DNA from: a virus
Lineage: Duplodnaviria > Heunggongvirae > Uroviricota > Caudoviricetes
Virus record (IMG/VR): IMGVR_UViG_2563366929_000003
Reading direction: 5' to 3' (one strand)
Length of the DNA stretch: 6,921 bases
Shown here: positions 53 to 6,921 of the stretch, piece after piece
How positions within the stretch are numbered: the stretch's first letter is position 1
How the letters are laid out: each line of letters starts with the position of its first letter
Notes under the pieces: model-generated
Seen by the model: the letters and a program-made list of their open reading frames with translations, nothing else
Databases searched by the model: none
What the model was told of the DNA's origin: nothing
Made by a program: the position numbers and the translations under genes

Positions 53-89
53 CCCGAAAAAGAGCCAGTCAGTTGCTTAACTGACTGGC
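53..89 (-). terminator. Putative intrinsic terminator for the minus-strand two-gene cassette: perfect 11-bp stem (64-74 gccagtcagtt / 79-89 aactgactggc) with 4-nt loop, followed on the minus strand by a T-rich run (rc of 53-63 = TCTTTTTCGGG)
   Basis: Read directly: perfect inverted repeat with gctt loop overlapping the stop codon (77-79) of the minus-strand ORF; a T-run follows in the minus orientation only. Confidence 0.5.
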
Positions 90-388
90 ATTACTGCTGT
101 AGCAAGATTTTTCCTGTATTCGTAAAATGATAACTCTCCTGATTTGAATCCTTTTAAGGTGGCTTCTATAAGGCATTTATTTTTTGAAAATCTTACATTT
201 ACAACCTTACCCTGTCCTTTTATTAAAACCGTATTATCGTTTTCAAGAACAAGATGAATATTCTCTGTGGCTAAATAGTAAATGTAATGTGAGACATTGT
301 GACGTTTTAGTTCAGAATAAAACCAGTGATAGTTTAAATTATTTCGCACTTTATCGAATATTTGTTTAAAAATGGCAATCTGAGCCAT
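77..388 (-). CDS. Hypothetical small protein (~103 aa), AT-rich accessory (moron-like) gene of unknown function; second gene of the minus-strand cassette
   Basis: ORF track 77..403 (108 aa). The first ATG (403) has no purine-rich Shine-Dalgarno upstream (upstream is a C7 tract), whereas the second in-frame ATG (386-388) is preceded by GAAGG at a 7-nt spacing, so the start at 388 is preferred. Region about 120-400 is far more AT-rich than the structural genes. I recognise no family. Confidence 0.5.
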
Positions 389-445
389 TGTAGTACCTTC
401 CATGTGATATGAGGGGGGGTAGTCTGCACGATTATCTAAATTGCT

Positions 446-679
446 TCAATCTGGTCTGACCTGTTTTCTGAGCAATTCAGTAATGTCACTCTTTTCTTTG
501 TTTGCTTCAGGCGAAACTCTTTTTTCTGAGCACAGTCTCCGGCGGCAGGCTTCAATGACCCAGGCTGAGAAATTCCCGGACCCTTTTTGAACAAGAGCGA
601 TGTTAATTTGTTCAATCATTTGGTTAGGAAAGCGGATGTTGCGGGTTGTTGTTCTGCGGGTTCTGTTCTTCGTTGACAT
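446..679 (-). CDS. Small basic DNA-binding protein, ribbon-helix-helix-like (77 aa); resembles the small YnfO/YlcI-type proteins that E. coli cryptic prophages encode next to their Nu1 homologues (recollection, unverified)
   Basis: ORF track 446..679. Basic N-terminal arm (MSTKNRTRRTTTR), then a predicted beta-strand (NIRFP), helix (NQMIEQINIALVQ), a G-x-S/N turn (KGSGN) and second helix (FSAWVIEACRRRL), the typical RHH (Arc/MetJ/CopG-like) layout. Sits divergently just upstream of cos and the Nu1 gene. Confidence 0.65.
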   Translation of the reverse strand: MSTKNRTRRTTTRNIRFPNQMIEQINIALVQKGSGNFSAWVIEACRRRLCSEKRVSPEANKEKSDITELLRKQVRPD

Positions 680-1067: not shown

Positions 1068-1616
1068 ATGAAGGTTAATAAAAAGAGGCTTGCCGAAATT
1101 TTTAACGTGGACCCGCGGACGATTGAACGCTGGCAGTCTCAGGGACTCCCTTGCGCCTCCAAAGGTAGTAAGGGCATTGAATCTGTATTTGATACTGCCA
1201 TGGCAATTCAGTGGTATGCGCAGAGGGAAACTGATATCGAAAACGAAAAGCTCCGCAAAGAACTGGCCGATTTGCGTGCGGCAGCGGAGTCAGATTTACA
1301 ACCCGGCACCATTGACTATGAACGCTACCGGCTCACAAAAGCGCAGGCAGATGCGCAGGAACTGAAAAATGCCCGTGAAGACGGAGTGGTGCTGGAAACT
1401 GAACTGTTTACCTTCATTCTGCAACGTGTGGCACAGGAGATTTCGGGGATACTTGTGCGTGTGCCGTTGACATTACAGCGTAAATATCCGGACATTTCAC
1501 CATCACACCTTGATGTGGTGAAAACTGAAATCGCGAAAGCCTCCAATGTTGCAGCTAAGGCCGGTGAAAACGTGGGCGGGTGGATCGATGATTTCAGACG
1601 CGCAGAAGGCAGCTAA
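1068..1616 (+). CDS. nu1: Terminase small subunit (lambda Nu1-like / phage 21 gp1-like), N-terminal winged-HTH DNA-binding domain
   Basis: ORF track 1068..1616 (182 aa). N-terminus [26 protein letters not shown]...[17 protein letters not shown] closely parallels lambda Nu1 (MEVNKKQLADIF...TIQNWQEQG...WYAERDAEIENEKLRRE) by recollection. First gene after cos; length matches Nu1 (181 aa). Confidence 0.9.
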
Positions 1617-3516
1617 TGCAGCCGGTGCGATAGCTACAGGGCTTTTATCTCTCATTATTCCTGTTCCACTGACGACAGTTCAGTGGGCCAATAAACATTA
1701 TTACCTTCCTAAAGAGTCGTCTTATACCCCGGGGCGGTGGGAAACACTGCCGTTTCAGGTTGGCATCATGAACTGTATGGGCAACGATTTGATTCGCACT
1801 GTTAACCTGATTAAATCTGCCCGTGTTGGTTATACAAAGATGTTGCTGGGAGTGGAGGCTTATTTTATTGAGCATAAATCACGCAACAGCCTTCTTTTTC
1901 AGCCCACGGACTCAGCTGCTGAAGATTTTATGAAATCTCATGTTGAGCCAACGATAAGGGATGTTCCTGCATTGCTGGAGCTGGCTCCATGGTTCGGAAG
2001 AAAACACCGCGATAATACGCTCACCCTGAAGCGTTTTTCCTCCGGTGTGGGGTTCTGGTGTCTGGGTGGTGCGGCAGCAAAAAACTACCGTGAAAAATCC
2101 GTGGATGTGGTCTGTTATGACGAGCTTTCCTCGTTCGAACCGGATGTTGAAAAAGAGGGTTCGCCAACCCTGCTGGGGGATAAACGTATTGAGGGCTCTG
2201 TATGGCCAAAATCCATTCGCGGCTCGACGCCTAAAATCAAAGGCTCCTGCCAGATCGAAAAAGCCGCTAACGAGTCGGCACACTTCATGCGTTTTTATGT
2301 GCCCTGTCCGCACTGTGGGGAGGAGCAGTATCTGAAATTTGGCGATGATGCCTCGCCTTTCGGTCTTAAGTGGGAGAAGAATAAGCCAGAAAGTGTTTTC
2401 TACCTTTGTGAGCATCATGGCTGTGTGATCCATCAGTCTGAGCTTGACCAGAGTAACGGGCGGTGGATCTGTGAAAACACGGGCATGTGGACCCGTGACG
2501 GCCTGATGTTTTTCAGCGCCCGGGGTGATGAAATTCCGCCGCCGCGCTCCATCACTTTCCATATCTGGACGGCGTACAGTCCGTTCACCACCTGGGTACA
2601 GATTGTCTATGACTGGCTGGATGCACTGAAAGATCCCAACGGCCTGAAAACCTTTGTGAACACCACGCTGGGCGAGACCTGGGAAGAGGCTGTGGGCGAA
2701 AAACTCGATCACCAGGTGCTGATGGATAAGGTTGTGCGTTACACGGCGGCGGTGCCTGCCCGGGTGGTTTATCTGACGGCGGGCATTGACTCGCAGCGAA
2801 ACCGTTTTGAGATGTATGTCTGGGGATGGGCTCCGGGAGAGGAAGCCTTTCTGGTGGATAAAATCATCATTATGGGGCGTCCCGATGAGGAAGAGACGCT
2901 GTTACGTGTGGATGCGGCGATCAACAAAAAATACCGCCATGCAGACGGAACCGAAATGACCATTTCCCGTGTCTGCTGGGACACCGGGGGGATCGATGGC
3001 GAAATCGTTTATCAGAGGTCAAAAAAACACGGTGTTTTCCGGGTGCTGCCGGTAAAAGGTGCATCTGTTTATGGCAAGCCGGTGATCACCATGCCAAAAA
3101 CCCGCAATCAGCGGGGCGTGTATCTGTGCGAAGTGGGGACGGACACCGCAAAAGAAATTCTCTATGCCCGTATGAAAGCCGATCCCACGCCTGCGGATGA
3201 AGCCACGTCGTATGCCATCCGTTTTCCTGATGATCCGGAGATTTTTTCGCAGACAGAGGCGCAGCAACTGGTGGCGGAAGAGCTTGTGGAGAAGTGGGAA
3301 AAAGGAAAGATGCGTCTGCTGTGGGATAACAAAAAGCGGCGTAACGAAGCGCTGGACTGCCTGGTGTATGCCTACGCGGCATTACGTGTGTCCGTGCAAC
3401 GCTGGCAGCTTGATCTGGCTGTACTGGCAAAATCCCGGGAAGAAGAGACGACCCGGCCAACCCTTAAAGAACTGGCAGCGAAGCTGTCCGGAGGAGTGAA
3501 TGGTTACAGTCGCTGA
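1588..3516 (+). CDS. A: Terminase large subunit (lambda gpA-like); ATPase/translocase plus endonuclease
   Basis: ORF track 1546..3516. Contains [10 protein letters not shown] at 1813-1842 (lambda Walker-A-like segment KSARVGYS), [20 protein letters not shown]...CEHHGC (2305-2424) and C-terminal RRNEALDC, all paralleling lambda gpA by recollection. Preferred start is ATG 1588 (MISDAQ...), giving 642 aa against lambda's 641 and overlapping the Nu1 end by 29 nt; the longer ATG 1546 is possible. Confidence 0.88.
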
Positions 3517-3706
3517 ACTGCAGGCGCTGCGTCAGGCGCGCCTTGATTTATTAACCGGTAAACGGGTGGTGTCTGTCCAGAAAGATGGTCGCAGAATTGA
3601 ATATACGGCAGCTTCTCTGGATGAGCTTAACCGGGCGATCAATGATGCGGAGTCGGTACTGGGGACAACCCGCCGTCGCCGTCGTCCGCTGGGAGTGAGG
3701 TTATGA
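3500..3706 (+). CDS. W: Head-tail joining / head completion protein (lambda gpW-like), 68 aa
   Basis: ORF track 3500..3706. Same length as lambda gpW; motif LTGKRVVSVQKDGRRIEYTA parallels lambda W ([20 protein letters not shown]). GGAGGAG at 3491-3497 just upstream of the ATG; overlaps the end of A by 17 nt. Confidence 0.85.
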   Translation: MVTVAELQALRQARLDLLTGKRVVSVQKDGRRIEYTAASLDELNRAINDAESVLGTTRRRRRPLGVRL

Positions 3707-5295
3707 AACGAACGCCTGTCCTGATTGATGTGAACGGCGTTCCGCTTCGTGAGAGTCTCAGCTACAACGGGGGCGGTGCAGGATTTGGCGGGCAAATGGC
3801 TGAGTGGTTGCCACCGGCGCAGAGTGCCGATGCGGCCCTGCTGCCCGCGTTGCGTCTGGGGAATGCCCGGGCAGATGATCTGGTGCGCAATAACGGAATA
3901 GCGGCCAATGCGGTGGCCCTGCATAAGGATCACATTGTCGGGCATATGTTTCTGATCAGCTACCGTCCGAACTGGCGCTGGCTGGGGATGCGGGAGACCG
4001 CGGCAAAAAGCTTTGTCGATGAGGTGGAGGCGGCCTGGTCAGAATACGCCGAAGGGATGTTTGGCGAGATCGACGTGGAAGGGAAACGCACGTTCACGGA
4101 ATTTATCCGTGAAGGTGTGGGCGTTCATGCGTTTAACGGCGAAATCTTTGTGCAGCCGGTCTGGGATACGGAGAGTACGCAACTGTTTCGTACGCGTTTT
4201 AAAGCCGTGAGTCCGAAACGGGTGGACACGCCAGGACACGGTATCGGGAACCGTTTTCTGCGGGCCGGTGTGGAGGTTGATCGATATGGCCGTGCCGTTG
4301 CGTACCATATCTGTGAGGATGATTTTCCTCGCTCCGGGAGTGGACGATGGGAACGGATCCCGCGTGAACTACCCACCGGGCGTCCGGCCATGCTGCATAT
4401 TTTCGAGCCGGTGGAGGACGGGCAGACCCGTGGGGCTAATCAGTTTTACAGCGTCATGGAACGGCTGAAGATGCTCGATTCCCTGCAGGCAACACAGCTT
4501 CAGTCGGCCATAGTGAAGGCGATGTATGCAGCGACGATTGAAAGTGAACTTGATACCGAAAAGGCCTTTGAATATATCGCCGGCGCGCCACAGGAGCAGA
4601 AGGATAATCCGCTTATTAATATTCTGGAGAAGTTTTCCAGCTGGTATGACACGAATAACGTGACACTGGGCGGTGTCAAAATTCCGCACCTTTTCCCTGG
4701 TGATGATCTGAAACTACAGACTGCGCAGGATTCAGACAATGGATTTTCTGCGCTTGAACAGGCGCTGCTGCGGTATATCGCCGCCGGTCTTGGCGTTTCC
4801 TACGAACAGTTGTCCCGTGATTACTCGAAGGTCAGTTACTCAAGTGCCCGCGCCTCCGCCAATGAGTCGTGGCGCTATTTTATGGGGCGGCGAAAATTTA
4901 TTGCGGCCCGGCTGGCCACGCAGATGTTTTCCTGCTGGCTGGAAGAGGCACTTCTTCGGGGGATTATTCGTCCGCCACGGGCACGTTTTGATTTTTATCA
5001 GGCGCGATCAGCCTGGTCACGGGCAGAGTGGATTGGTGCCGGAAGAATGGCCATTGACGGGCTCAAGGAAGTCCAGGAATCAGTGATGCGCATTGAGGCC
5101 GGACTGAGCACGTATGAGAAAGAGCTGGCGCTGATGGGCGAGGATTATCAGGACATTTTCCGCCAGCAGGTCAGGGAATCTGCTGAGCGGCAAAAAGCCG
5201 GACTCTCACGTCCGGTGTGGATAGCGCAGGCGTATCAGCAGCAGATAGCGGAGAGTCGCAGGCCGGAAGAGGAGACAACACCACGTGAGACGTAA
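3703..5295 (+). CDS. B: Portal protein (lambda gpB-like), 530 aa
   Basis: ORF track 3703..5295. Position between W and the protease gene and size (lambda B is 533 aa) match; ATGA start/stop overlap with W; GGAG in the 3691-3699 region upstream. Confidence 0.88.
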   Translation: MKRTPVLIDVNGVPLRESLSYNGGGAGFGGQMAEWLPPAQSADAALLPALRLGNARADDLVRNNGIAANAVALHKDHIVGHMFLISYRPNWRWLGMRETAAKSFVDEVEAAWSEYAEGMFGEIDVEGKRTFTEFIREGVGVHAFNGEIFVQPVWDTESTQLFRTRFKAVSPKRVDTPGHGIGNRFLRAGVEVDRYGRAVAYHICEDDFPRSGSGRWERIPRELPTGRPAMLHIFEPVEDGQTRGANQFYSVMERLKMLDSLQATQLQSAIVKAMYAATIESELDTEKAFEYIAGAPQEQKDNPLINILEKFSSWYDTNNVTLGGVKIPHLFPGDDLKLQTAQDSDNGFSALEQALLRYIAAGLGVSYEQLSRDYSKVSYSSARASANESWRYFMGRRKFIAARLATQMFSCWLEEALLRGIIRPPRARFDFYQARSAWSRAEWIGAGRMAIDGLKEVQESVMRIEAGLSTYEKELALMGEDYQDIFRQQVRESAERQKAGLSRPVWIAQAYQQQIAESRRPEEETTPRET

Positions 5296-6790
5296 TCTTT
5301 CACACATTATTGCCGCAGCATTCAATGAACCGCTGCTTCTGGAGCCCGCCTATGCGCGGGTTTTCTTTTGCGCGCTCGGGCGCGAGATGGGGGCAGCAAG
5401 TCTTTCGGTACCGCAACAGCAGGTACAGCTTGATGCTCCCGGGATGCTGGCTGAAACGGACGAGTACATGGCCGGAGGTAAACGACCGGCCCGTGTTTAC
5501 CGGGTGGTGAACGGTATTGCGGTACTGCCGGTGACCGGCACGCTGGTGCACCGGCTGGGGGGGATGCGGCCATTTTCCGGAATGACTGGCTATGACGGCA
5601 TTGTCGCCTGTCTTCAGCAGGCAATGGCAGATAGCCAGGTGCGGGGCGTACTGCTGGACATTGACAGTCCGGGCGGGCAGGCCGCCGGCGCGTTTGACTG
5701 CGCTGACATGATTTACCGCCTCCGGCAGCAGAAGCCGGTCTGGGCACTGTGCAATGACACGGCCTGTTCTGCAGCCATGCTGCTGGCGTCGGCCTGCTCC
5801 CGACGGCTGGTTACCCAGACATCCCGTATCGGCTCCATTGGCGTGATGATGAGCCATGTCAGCTATGCCGGTCATCTGGCGCAGGCCGGTGTGGATATCA
5901 CGCTGATTTACTCAGGGGCGCACAAGGTGGATGGCAATCAGTTTGAAGCGTTGCCGGCAGAGGTTCGCCAGGACATGCAGCAGCGGATTGATGCGGCGCG
6001 CCGGATGTTTGCCGAAAAAGTGGCGATGTTTACCGGTCTGTCTGTTGATGCAGTCACGGGAACAGAGGCCGCCGTTTTTGAAGGTCAGTCCGGCATTGAG
6101 GCCGGGCTGGCGGATGAATTAATCAATGCGTCGGATGCCATCAGTGTGATGGCCACGGCGCTGAACAGTAATGTCAGAGGAGGTACTATGCCGCAATTAA
6201 CTGCAACGGAAGCCGCCGCGCAGGAGAACCAGCGAGTGATGGGGATCCTGACATGCCAGGAAGCGAAAGGACGTGAACAGCTTGCCACGATGCTGGCAGG
6301 ACAACAGGGCATGAGCGTTGAACAGGCCCGGGCGATTCTGGCCGCGGCGGCACCGCAGCAGCCGGTGGCATCCGCGCAGAGTGAAGCCGATCGCATTATG
6401 GCGTGTGAAGAAGCGAACGGTCGTGAACAACTGGCGGCAACGCTGGCGGCGATGCCGGAGATGACGGTGGAAAAAGCCCGCCCGATCCTGGCGGCTGCAC
6501 CACTGGCGGATGCCGGGCCCTCGCTTCGTGATCAGATCATGGCACTGGATGAGGCAAAAGGGGCAGAAGCGCAGGCTGAACAACTGGCTGCCTGCCCGGG
6601 AATGACAGTGGAGAGCGCCCGGGCTGTGCTGGCTGCGGGATCAGGTAAGGCAGAACCGGTCTCTGCATCCACAACCGCCCTGTTTGAACATTTCATGGCG
6701 AACCATTCACCGGCAGCGGTACAGGGTGGCGTGGCACAGACGTCAGCAGACGGTGATGCGGACGTGAAAATGCTCATGGCCATGCCATGA
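5285..6790 (+). CDS. C: Prohead protease, S49 peptidase family (lambda gpC-like), with C-terminal scaffold-like repeat domain
   Basis: ORF track 5285..6790 (501 aa), GTG start overlapping the portal stop by 11 nt, GGAG at 5271-5274. N-terminal 300 aa parallel lambda C (AFNEPLLLEPAYARVFFCALG; GIAVLPVTGTLV; MTGYDGI; GAFDCADMI; KPVWAL; SRRLVTQTSRIGSIGVMM; ITLIYSGAHKVDGN) by recollection. Confidence 0.88.
   Translation: MRRNLSHIIAAAFNEPLLLEPAYARVFFCALGREMGAASLSVPQQQVQLDAPGMLAETDEYMAGGKRPARVYRVVNGIAVLPVTGTLVHRLGGMRPFSGMTGYDGIVACLQQAMADSQVRGVLLDIDSPGGQAAGAFDCADMIYRLRQQKPVWALCNDTACSAAMLLASACSRRLVTQTSRIGSIGVMMSHVSYAGHLAQAGVDITLIYSGAHKVDGNQFEALPAEVRQDMQQRIDAARRMFAEKVAMFTGLSVDAVTGTEAAVFEGQSGIEAGLADELINASDAISVMATALNSNVRGGTMPQLTATEAAAQENQRVMGILTCQEAKGREQLATMLAGQQGMSVEQARAILAAAAPQQPVASAQSEADRIMACEEANGREQLAATLAAMPEMTVEKARPILAAAPLADAGPSLRDQIMALDEAKGAEAQAEQLAACPGMTVESARAVLAAGSGKAEPVSASTTALFEHFMANHSPAAVQGGVAQTSADGDADVKMLMAMP
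6188..6790 (+). CDS. nu3: Nested in-frame scaffold protein (lambda Nu3-like), translated from an internal start within the protease gene; 200 aa
   Basis: Read directly: strong Shine-Dalgarno GAGGAGG (6176-6182) 5 nt upstream of an in-frame ATG at 6188 (codon 302 of the protease ORF). The product is Ala/Glu/Gln-rich, low-complexity and repeat-containing, as expected of a scaffold. Lambda has the same C/Nu3 nested arrangement. Confidence 0.6.
   Translation: MPQLTATEAAAQENQRVMGILTCQEAKGREQLATMLAGQQGMSVEQARAILAAAAPQQPVASAQSEADRIMACEEANGREQLAATLAAMPEMTVEKARPILAAAPLADAGPSLRDQIMALDEAKGAEAQAEQLAACPGMTVESARAVLAAGSGKAEPVSASTTALFEHFMANHSPAAVQGGVAQTSADGDADVKMLMAMP
6224..6670 (+). repeat. Three tandem, diverged ~48-53-aa protein-level repeats within the scaffold/Nu3 region (units approx 6224-6382, 6383-6526, 6527-6670)
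   Basis: Read from the translation: ENQRVMGILTCQEAKGREQLATMLAGQQGMSVEQARAILAAAAPQ / EADRIMACEEANGREQLAATLAAMPEMTVEKARPILAAAPLA / RDQIMALDEAKGAEAQAEQLAACPGMTVESARAVLAAGSG. All units are in the same frame with 159- and 144-nt spacing; DNA identity between units is only partial. Confidence 0.7.
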
Positions 6791-6826: not shown

Positions 6827-6921
6827 ATGGTGACGAAAACCATCACTGAACAGCGTGCGGAAGTACGTATTTTTGCCGGTAATGATCCGGCTCATACCGC
6901 CACAGGCAGCAGCGGGATTTC
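6827..6921 (+). CDS. D: Head decoration protein (lambda gpD-like), 5' partial (continues beyond window)
   Basis: ATG at 6827 preceded by AGGAGG (6811-6816). N-terminus MVTKTITEQRAEVRIFAGNDPAHTATGSSGI carries the NDPAHTAT motif recalled from lambda gpD (...SDPAHTATAPGG...). Position immediately after C/Nu3 matches lambda order. Confidence 0.8.
   Translation, partial: MVTKTITEQRAEVRIFAGNDPAHTATGSSGI

What the first reader, a model, noticed from the sequence alone, without database searches (positions are those of the whole stretch)
6224..6670. Triplicated ~48-aa repeat in the scaffold domain
The C-terminal part of the protease/scaffold ORF contains three tandem units sharing the pattern (I/V)M-x-(I/C/L)...(Q/E)EA(K/N)G-x-E...LA...(M/P)-x-M(S/T)VE-x-AR-x-(I/V)LAA. 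The units are diverged at the DNA level, so this is an old duplication kept by selection, not recent slippage. By recollection lambda C/Nu3 carries at least one unit of this motif and lambda C is about 60 aa shorter (439 vs 501 aa), consistent with extra copies here. The copies could be multiple capsid- or portal-binding modules; copy number may relate to capsid size or assembly kinetics.
Basis: partly seen in the sequence, partly recalled or inferred. Interest (0 to 1): 0.55.

Follow-up and report, generated by a model that had tools for sequence, protein, structure and literature searches.

The report
Phage 21 scaffold "Tri box" triplication
The head protease/scaffold gene of this phage 21-like element carries three diverged tandem copies of a small three-helix module that lambda and most relatives have only once; the repeat is real and old, but it has been annotated in phage 21 since the early 1990s as "Tri boxes" and its function is still unproven.

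Summary
The 501-aa ORF at 5285-6790 (S49 prohead protease, with a nested 200-aa scaffold ORF from ATG 6188) has three tandem units of 42-45 aa at 6224-6358, 6383-6508 and 6524-6649. Pairwise scores are 11-16 SD above shuffles. Synonymous sites are saturated and dN/dS is 0.06-0.30.

It is not new. The window is 98% identical to phage 21, and GenBank M81255.1 marks the same three stretches as "Tri1 box / Tri box / Tri3 box, function unknown".

What I added:
- Lambda and Aeromonas phiARM81ld have one unit. Gifsy-1 has the same three in the same order.
- Of the 150 best representatives from 1.84 billion proteins, 136 have one unit.
- All eight lineages examined pair the unit with a lambda E-type capsid gene.
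- With a 52-sequence alignment, AlphaFold models the unit as a compact three-helix bundle (pLDDT 86-94), not a hairpin.
- Rare E. coli prophage variants with 2, about 2.5 and 4 units sit in intact head operons with the same 342-aa capsid gene, so copy number does not track capsid size.

The most likely role, which is inferred, is a protein-binding module that holds both protease and scaffold inside the procapsid. Interest is low.

The parts
5285..6790 (+). Gene 5 / lambda C homologue: S49 prohead protease fused to the scaffold domain, 501 aa, GTG start overlapping the end of the portal gene
   Evidence: ORF list. Pfam Peptidase_S49 at aa 146-293, E = 1.5e-34. 98.2% nt identity to phage 21 gene 5.
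6177..6183 (+). Shine-Dalgarno (GAGGAGG) for the nested in-frame start
   Evidence: Read directly from the sequence. Annotated as an RBS in both phage 21 records. An equivalent AGGAGG-ATG is present in Gifsy-1 and lambda.
6188..6790 (+). Nested gene 6 / Nu3-like scaffold ORF, 200 aa, same frame and same C-terminus as gene 5
   Evidence: phrog_8399 'head scaffolding protein' and phrog_8940 'capsid assembly protein' each match in 3 stretches.
6224..6358 (+). Unit 1 (aa 314-358). It keeps the ancestral N-terminus R-V-M-G-I-L seen in lambda. GenBank Tri1 box corresponds to 6255-6358.
   Evidence: Unit HMM 81 bits. 71-79% identical to the first units of Gifsy-1, P0121, P0123 and P0124, against 45-61% to paralogous units. 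Tri-box coordinates mapped.
6359..6382 (+). Linker 1 (QPVASAQS), Pro/Gln/Ala-rich
   Evidence: Low pLDDT and no helix in the single-sequence model.
6383..6508 (+). Unit 2 (aa 367-408), 3 aa shorter at its N-terminus. GenBank Tri box corresponds to 6395-6505.
   Evidence: Unit HMM 84 bits. 79% identical to Gifsy-1 unit 2.
6509..6523 (+). Linker 2 (DAGPS)
6524..6649 (+). Unit 3 (aa 414-455). GenBank Tri3 box corresponds to 6536-6649. Modelled as three helices: aa 414-419, 428-435 and 442-452.
   Evidence: Unit HMM 82 bits. AlphaFold with a 52-sequence alignment gives pLDDT 86-94 over the unit. It has G-A-E where the family has a near-invariant G-R-E.
6650..6787 (+). Single-copy C-terminal tail (46 aa). 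It includes the conserved helix T-A-L-F-E-H-F-M (nt 6671-6697), which corresponds to lambda T-A-L-D-R-L-M.
   Evidence: Near-invariant Met in alignment A2. Helix 53-66 of the model, pLDDT about 71-76. In relatives the tail after the last unit has a median length of 51 aa.
6260..6267 (+). GAAGCGAA, repeated at 6410-6417: the end points of the natural 150-nt deletion that yields the 451-aa two-unit form
   Evidence: DNA alignment with L006. Repeat positions.
6431..6438 (+). CTGGCGGC, repeated at 6488-6495: the end points of the natural 57-nt deletion that removes the end of helix 2, the loop and helix 3 of unit 2 (482-aa form)
   Evidence: DNA alignment with L007. Repeat positions. The junction probe matches 56 of 5426 complete E. 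coli genomes.

Best explanation
The region encodes three paralogous copies of a module of about 42 aa. A single copy of this module sits about 40-60 aa from the C-terminus of lambda-type (S49) prohead protease/scaffold proteins.

Shown:
- The module is modelled as a compact three-helix bundle.
- The copies are joined by short Pro/Ala/Gly/Gln linkers, like beads on a string.
- Because gene 6 is nested in frame within gene 5, both the protease and the scaffold end in the same three modules and the same single-copy tail.

Inferred: the module is a protein-protein contact site that holds protease and scaffold against the inner face of the E-type capsid shell, or against each other, during procapsid assembly. 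The protease then destroys it. Three copies would make that contact multivalent.

The triplication arose once, in the ancestor of the enterobacterial phage 21/Gifsy-1 head module. It is maintained by purifying selection. Short direct repeats between and within units occasionally mediate changes in copy number.

It is the same feature that GenBank M81255.1 annotates in phage 21 as the Tri1, Tri and Tri3 boxes.
For: - Reality of the repeat: z = 11-16; single-unit PHROG profiles match three times.
- Identity with the Tri boxes: 98.2% identity to phage 21, and the repeat_region features map to window 6255-6358, 6395-6505 and 6536-6649.
- Selection: dN/dS 0.06-0.30 with saturated dS. All three units keep the family-wide conserved residues I, E-A-x-G-(R)-E, A, L-A, M-(T/S)-V-E, A-(R/K), L-A-A.
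- One unit is the norm: lambda and phiARM81ld have 1; 136 of the 150 best representatives have 1; the divergent lineages L091-L097 have 1.
- The triple is ancestral to 21 and Gifsy-1: positional orthology of U1 and U2.
- Partner context: the unit is followed by a PF03864 Phage_cap_E capsid gene in all eight lineages examined.
- Lambda Nu3 interacts with E, C and itself in yeast two-hybrid, and is needed for incorporation of portal protein B (PMC3224144).
- Analogy: the C-terminal helix-loop-helix of the P22 scaffold binds the coat N-arm (PMC9965877).
Against: - No experiment or complex model here shows what the unit binds. The partner could be capsid, portal or the scaffold itself.
- The whole head module is syntenic, so co-occurrence with E-type capsid genes cannot separate these candidates.
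- The single-copy tail helix downstream of the units is also conserved and could be the real capsid contact.
- Rare natural forms with 2 or about 2.5 units lie in intact operons. Three copies may therefore not be strictly needed, although whether those prophages are viable is unknown.
- Unit 3 has lost the near-invariant Arg of G-R-E.
Confidence: 0.55

Rival explanations
1. The units are self-association (oligomerisation) modules of the scaffold. Three copies per chain would let phage 21 scaffold molecules cross-link into the internal core rather than bind the shell.
For: Lambda Nu3-Nu3 and C-Nu3 interactions are reported, and dimerisation was confirmed independently (PMC3224144). The units are acidic or neutral (net charge 0, -3, -3). 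That differs from the basic coat-binding helix-loop-helix of P22.
Against: No data locate the self-interaction to this unit. In most relatives a single copy suffices.
Confidence: 0.2
2. The units dock protease and scaffold onto the portal (gpB homologue) in the assembly initiator complex.
For: Lambda Nu3 is required for incorporation of B, and C-B contacts are listed among published interactions (PMC3224144). All lineages with the unit have the same lambda-type portal gene immediately upstream.
Against: Two-hybrid screens did not detect any B interaction. By my own recollection of the lambda literature, the scaffold is present in far more copies than the 12 portal subunits, so a module carried on every scaffold chain is more than portal docking alone would require.
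Confidence: 0.12
3. The extra copies are largely redundant spacer: a tolerated duplication that only lengthens the flexible scaffold, with no function of its own for copies 2 and 3.
For: Natural forms with 2, about 2.5 and 4 units occur in intact operons. In the 21 lineage the roughly 37-aa linker that lambda has before its unit is absent.
Against: All three copies are under purifying selection and keep the conserved residues of the family. The three-unit form has persisted since before the 21/Gifsy-1 split. It also dominates: 2558 places against 56 for the truncated form in complete E. coli genomes, and 76 of 80 IMG/VR loci.
Confidence: 0.1
4. The unit is a helix-hairpin-helix-like DNA-binding motif.
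Against: The Pfam score is 13 bits against a cut-off of 24. The Foldseek E-values are all above 3. The units are acidic. By general knowledge of tailed-phage assembly, scaffold is removed before DNA enters the head.
Confidence: 0.03

Closest known systems
Phage 21 genes 5/6 with 'Tri1 box / Tri box / Tri3 box' (GenBank M81255.1; also OL657228.1)
   Same: The same gene at 98.2% nt identity, the same nested start and the same three repeats. The annotated boxes map onto the cores of the three units.
   Different: Only point differences, for example A/V in unit 2 and APLA/SPQA after it. The GenBank note reads 'function unknown; putative'.
Lambda C / Nu3 (S49 prohead protease with nested scaffold)
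   Same: The S49 domain, the position between the portal gene and the D/E genes, the conserved SD-ATG nested start, the C-terminal unit and the T-A-L-D-R-L-M tail.
   Different: Lambda has one unit, not three, and about 37 aa more linker before it. C is 439 aa against 501 aa here.
Gifsy-1 gpC homologue (STM2605)
   Same: Three units in the same order, with positional orthology, and the same nested start at aa 302.
   Different: 56% identity in the scaffold part. Its unit 3 keeps G-R-E.
P22 gp8 scaffolding protein, C-terminal coat-binding helix-loop-helix
   Same: A small helical module near the scaffold C-terminus. It is the best-documented way that a scaffold attaches to an HK97-fold shell (PMC9965877). 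This is a proposed functional analogy.
   Different: P22 has two helices at the extreme C-terminus, is basic, is present once, and has no fused protease. Here the module has three helices, lies about 50 aa from the end, is acidic or neutral, and is present three times. No sequence or fold match to any solved scaffold was found.

Membership tests
Phage 21 Tri boxes (M81255.1 annotation) | Three repeat_regions inside gene 6 of the phage 21 head operon | tested here: met
   Locus L001 features 1568-1671, 1708-1818 and 1849-1962 map to window 6255-6358, 6395-6505 and 6536-6649, with no indels and 98.2% identity.
Lambda C/Nu3-type prohead protease-scaffold | S49 (SppA-like) peptidase domain in the N-terminal two thirds | tested here: met
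   PF01343 at E = 1.5e-34, aa 146-293. phrog_53 'head maturation protease' at E = 5.6e-150.
Lambda C/Nu3-type prohead protease-scaffold | In-frame nested scaffold ORF with its own ribosome-binding site | tested here: met
   AGAGGAGG-TACT-ATG at 6176-6190. The equivalent site is conserved in Gifsy-1 and lambda. Expression itself cannot be tested here.
Lambda C/Nu3-type prohead protease-scaffold | Gene order portal - C - decoration (D/shp) - E-type capsid | tested here: met
   In the window the portal ORF is 3703-5295 and the shp start is at 6828. Near-identical loci continue with HDPD and a 342-aa Phage_cap_E gene.
Lambda C/Nu3-type prohead protease-scaffold | Proteolytic removal of the scaffold and self-processing in the prohead | not testable with these tools
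   Needs biochemistry.
P22-type coat-binding helix-loop-helix | Two-helix hairpin at the extreme C-terminus with basic contact residues | tested here: not met
   The model has three helices per unit, ending 46 aa from the C-terminus. Net charge is 0 to -3. No PDB sequence or fold match.
Helix-hairpin-helix (PF00633) | Score above the Pfam gathering threshold | tested here: not met
   13.0 bits against a cut-off of 24, E = 0.095.
UBA/CUE-like three-helix bundle (fold class only) | Compact three-helix bundle of about 40 residues that superposes on UBA/CUE domains | tested here: inconclusive

The most novel reading that the evidence does not exclude
The number of three-helix modules sets the avidity of scaffold and protease for the E-type shell. 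Recombination at the short repeats between and within units would then be a natural tuning knob. The rare 2-, about 2.5- and 4-unit forms would be functional variants with altered assembly kinetics or protease loading, rather than neutral or defective alleles.
Probability: 0.12. Interest if true: 0.45.

Novelty: already known. Interest (0 to 1): 0.2.

Why it matters
Scaffold-to-shell contacts are known in atomic detail for P22 and a few other phages, but I found nothing comparable for the lambda family. No solved structure matches this region by sequence or by fold, and the literature searches found no structural study of it.

This work marks a small, confidently modelled, family-wide module as the obvious candidate for that contact. 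It also shows that phage 21 carries three copies of it. That gives a simple set of deletion and binding experiments.

The triplication itself is a rediscovery of a feature annotated in GenBank M81255.1, so the finding does not change what is known.

Tried and rejected
- **DNA repeat finders.** TRF and the DNA repeat finder do not see the array. The repeat exists only at the protein level, so recent slippage is rejected.
- **Pfam.** There is no family for the unit. The HHH hit is below threshold.
- **PDB sequence search.** Only chance LacI matches.
- **Foldseek against PDB.** Nothing with E < 3.
- **Single-sequence AlphaFold of the 200-aa product.** Low confidence (mean pLDDT 64.6). It suggested two-helix hairpins, which the alignment-based model replaced.
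- **80-nt junction probes.** Uninformative, because the tool joins neighbouring pieces. I replaced them with 36-nt probes that cannot seed on the other forms.
- **The search for related loci.** With A1 it returned only near-identical E. coli prophages.
- **Capsid-size hypothesis.** Rejected, because all copy-number forms go with capsid genes of 341-342 aa.
- **Literature.** Searches found no paper in the held library on the Tri boxes or on the function of this motif. I believe, from memory, that the phage 21 head-operon sequence paper is Smith and Feiss, Gene 1993. The DOI I tried for it is not held, so what that paper says about the boxes was not read.
- **Cluster counts.** The 90%-identity clusters made the 482-aa form look common. 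Genome-level counts show it is rare.

Full report
**What the window is.** The window is a lambda-type head operon:

| Feature | Coordinates |
|---|---|
| Nu1 | 1068-1616 |
| Large terminase | to 3516 |
| W | 3500-3706 |
| Portal | 3703-5295 |
| 501-aa ORF (lambda C homologue) | 5285-6790 |
| Start of a phage 21 shp-type decoration gene | 6828 |

The 501-aa ORF is 98.2% identical in DNA to gene 5 of phage 21 (M81255.1 and OL657228.1), and 94-98% identical to a set of E. coli phages and prophages. Residues 146-293 are a Peptidase_S49 domain (E = 1.5e-34). An in-frame ATG at 6188, preceded by AGAGGAGG, opens a nested 200-aa ORF. Both phage 21 records annotate this ORF as gene 6, the scaffolding protein.

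**Is the repeat real?** Yes. The three units are aa 314-358, 367-408 and 414-455 (nt 6224-6358, 6383-6508, 6524-6649). Local alignment scores between them are 85-105, against 25 +/- 5 for shuffled partners. That gives z = 11.6-16.3, and none of 2000 shuffles reached the observed score. Sixteen columns are invariant among the three. Four PHROG profiles built from scaffold or capsid-assembly families each match the 200-aa product in three stretches.

At the DNA level the array is invisible to Tandem Repeats Finder, and only a 41-nt core is 71% identical. Third-codon positions are 31-37% identical between units, which means they are saturated, while amino-acid identity is 54-63%. dN/dS is 0.06-0.30.

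**It is already annotated.** GenBank M81255.1 ("Bacteriophage 21 head gene operon") carries three repeat_region features inside gene 6: "Tri1 box", "Tri box" and "Tri3 box". There are no indels between that record and the window over this stretch. The boxes map to window 6255-6358, 6395-6505 and 6536-6649, which are the cores of my units 1-3. The observation therefore rediscovers a known feature of phage 21. I could not read the paper behind the record: the DOI I tried, recalled as Smith and Feiss, Gene 1993, is not held.

**Copy number in relatives.**
- A unit HMM finds exactly one copy in lambda C (aa 357-401, 53.7 bits) and one in Aeromonas phage phiARM81ld. It finds three in Gifsy-1.
- Units are positional orthologues. 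Unit 1 of the window is 71-79% identical to the first units of Gifsy-1 and of three other three-unit proteins, but 45-61% identical to paralogous units. Unit 2 behaves the same way (71-79%), and unit 3 less clearly (61%). The triplication therefore predates the 21/Gifsy-1 split, where the scaffold part is 56% identical.
- Unit 1 keeps the N-terminal R-V-M-G-I-L of the single-unit family. Units 2 and 3 lack three residues there, so unit 1 looks like the original.
- A profile of the three units, searched against 1.84 billion representative proteins, found 443 proteins at E <= 0.001. On recount, 136 of the best 150 have one unit, 9 have two and 4 have three. One had no unit on recount. Most of the two-unit hits are fragments of 21-like proteins. 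P0127/P0132, P0155 and P0248 look like separate duplications. The three-unit proteins are all in the enterobacterial 21/Gifsy-like group.
- In proteins longer than 300 aa the last unit ends a median of 51 aa before the C-terminus.
- The 62-aa difference between 501 and 439 aa comes from about 97 aa of extra units and linkers, minus about 37 aa of linker that only lambda has.

**What the unit looks like.** A single-sequence AlphaFold model of the 200-aa product was poor (mean pLDDT 64.6). It drew each unit as a long helix plus a short helix. I then aligned unit 3 plus the tail with 51 diverse single-unit C-termini. With that alignment the unit is modelled at pLDDT 86-94 as three short helices, at aa 414-419, 428-435 and 442-452. 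The conserved E-A-K-G-R-E and P-G-M-T stretches form the two turns.

The units are neutral to acidic, with net charges of 0, -3 and -3. The linkers are rich in Pro, Gln, Ala and Gly. After unit 3 comes a single-copy tail with a second conserved helix, T-A-L-F-E-H-F-M (lambda T-A-L-D-R-L-M).

**Context across lineages.** Eight lineages were examined: lambda, 21, Gifsy-1, phiARM81ld and four divergent groups of metagenomic viral contigs. In every one the unit-bearing S49 protein lies between a portal gene and a PF03864 Phage_cap_E capsid gene. A gpD-type decoration gene usually lies between them. The module therefore belongs to the lambda E-type head module. Because that whole module is syntenic, this cannot identify which protein the unit touches.

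**Copy number is polymorphic but three is the norm.** The 120 closest protein clusters include the following forms:

| Form | Units | How it differs from the window |
|---|---|---|
| 451 aa | 2 | U1/U2 chimera plus U3; a 150-nt deletion, exactly one period, between the GAAGCGAA copies at 6260 and 6410 |
| 452 aa | 2 | U1 plus U3 |
| 482 aa | about 2.5 | 57-nt deletion between the CTGGCGGC copies at 6431 and 6488; removes the end of helix 2, the loop and helix 3 of unit 2 |
| 551 aa | 4 | 150-nt duplication joining the U3 loop to the U2 loop; seen in two assemblies |

The 451-, 482- and 551-aa forms all lie in otherwise complete head-tail operons with the same 342-aa capsid gene. That argues against any link between copy number and capsid size.

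The variants are rare. Counts come from 36-nt probes that cannot seed on the other forms:

| Probe | Complete E. coli genomes (of 5426) | Places |
|---|---|---|
| Undeleted unit-2 boundary | 1604 | 2558 |
| 482-type junction | 56 | 56 |
| 451-type junction | 0 | 0 |

In addition, 76 of 80 IMG/VR loci have three full units and 2 have the truncated unit 2. Whether the variant prophages are viable is unknown.

**Mechanism.** Three things are shown. The unit is a conserved, selected, confidently modelled three-helix module. Protease and scaffold share it through nested translation. It is present once in most relatives and three times here.

The rest is inferred. I take the unit to be a protein-binding site that localises both proteins inside the assembling E-type shell, with three copies giving multivalent attachment. 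The inference rests on:
- the yeast two-hybrid contacts of lambda Nu3 with E, C and itself, and the requirement for Nu3 in portal incorporation (PMC3224144);
- the documented role of the C-terminal helix-loop-helix of the P22 scaffold in binding the coat N-arm (PMC9965877);
- the placement and fold class of the unit.

The rivals are self-association, portal docking, a largely redundant spacer, and a helix-hairpin-helix-like DNA binder (very unlikely). They are listed with their evidence in the Rival explanations section. The conserved tail helix is a serious alternative for the actual shell contact.

**Verdict.** Novelty is "already known" because of the phage 21 Tri boxes in GenBank M81255.1. 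The additions made here are modest and do not change the picture: one unit is the family norm, the unit has a three-helix fold, the triple is orthologous in Gifsy-1, rare recombinant copy-number variants exist, and there is no link to capsid size. Interest is low.

Noticed in passing
window 6176-6190; L004 (Gifsy-1) C codon 302; L003 (lambda) C codon 309: The strong SD-ATG of the nested start is conserved at the equivalent codon in the window, Gifsy-1 and lambda (CAGGAGGGCGAATG). The RefSeq-annotated lambda nu3 start (C codon 239, nt 5132) has only a weak, distant GGGAG. The lambda scaffold may really start at Met309, giving 131 aa rather than 201.
   Followed up: partly
window 6671-6697 (aa 463-471): A second conserved element lies downstream of the repeats: the helix T-A-L-F-E-H-F-M, which corresponds to lambda T-A-L-D-R-L-M. 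It has a near-invariant Met across 52 diverse C-termini and is single-copy everywhere. It could be the true capsid-contact tail.
   Followed up: partly
window 77-403 (-) and 446-679 (-): Two minus-strand ORFs upstream of Nu1 match DUF1398 (E = 4.8e-28) and DUF3950 (E = 2e-20). These are accessory genes of unknown function at the end of the late region.
   Followed up: partly
window about 6193-6206 and 6427-6440 (-): OL657228.1 annotates two 'CII binding site' pattern matches (ttgyN6ttgy) inside gene 6. One is at the nested start and one is inside unit 2. They are pattern matches only and are probably chance.
   Followed up: no
P0080 (721 aa), P0084 (577 aa), P0126: In some E. coli genomes the C ORF runs from the end of unit 3 straight into tail-fibre-like sequence. 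These appear to be prophages that have lost everything between the scaffold and the tail-fibre genes.
   Followed up: no
P0001 (657 aa): A single E. coli sequence has a 156-aa segment duplicated, from late in the protease domain to the start of unit 3. This gives six unit matches. It may be a real tandem duplication or an assembly artefact.
   Followed up: no
L009 (GCA_900537015.1), four-unit form: The assembly has an ambiguous base (N) exactly at the duplication junction and at the matching position of the next unit. A second assembly (P0003) encodes the same four-unit protein, so the form is probably real.
   Followed up: partly
phrog_21 match to window 5285-6187: The PHROG called 'portal protein' (1362 profile positions) matches the S49 protease part at E = 3e-54. 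That family therefore seems to include portal-protease fusion proteins.
   Followed up: no
window 1546-3516: The mechanical ORF for the large terminase (656 aa) starts 14 codons upstream of the 642-aa product called in near-identical loci (start M-I-S-D-A-Q). The upstream ATG overlaps the end of Nu1.
   Followed up: no
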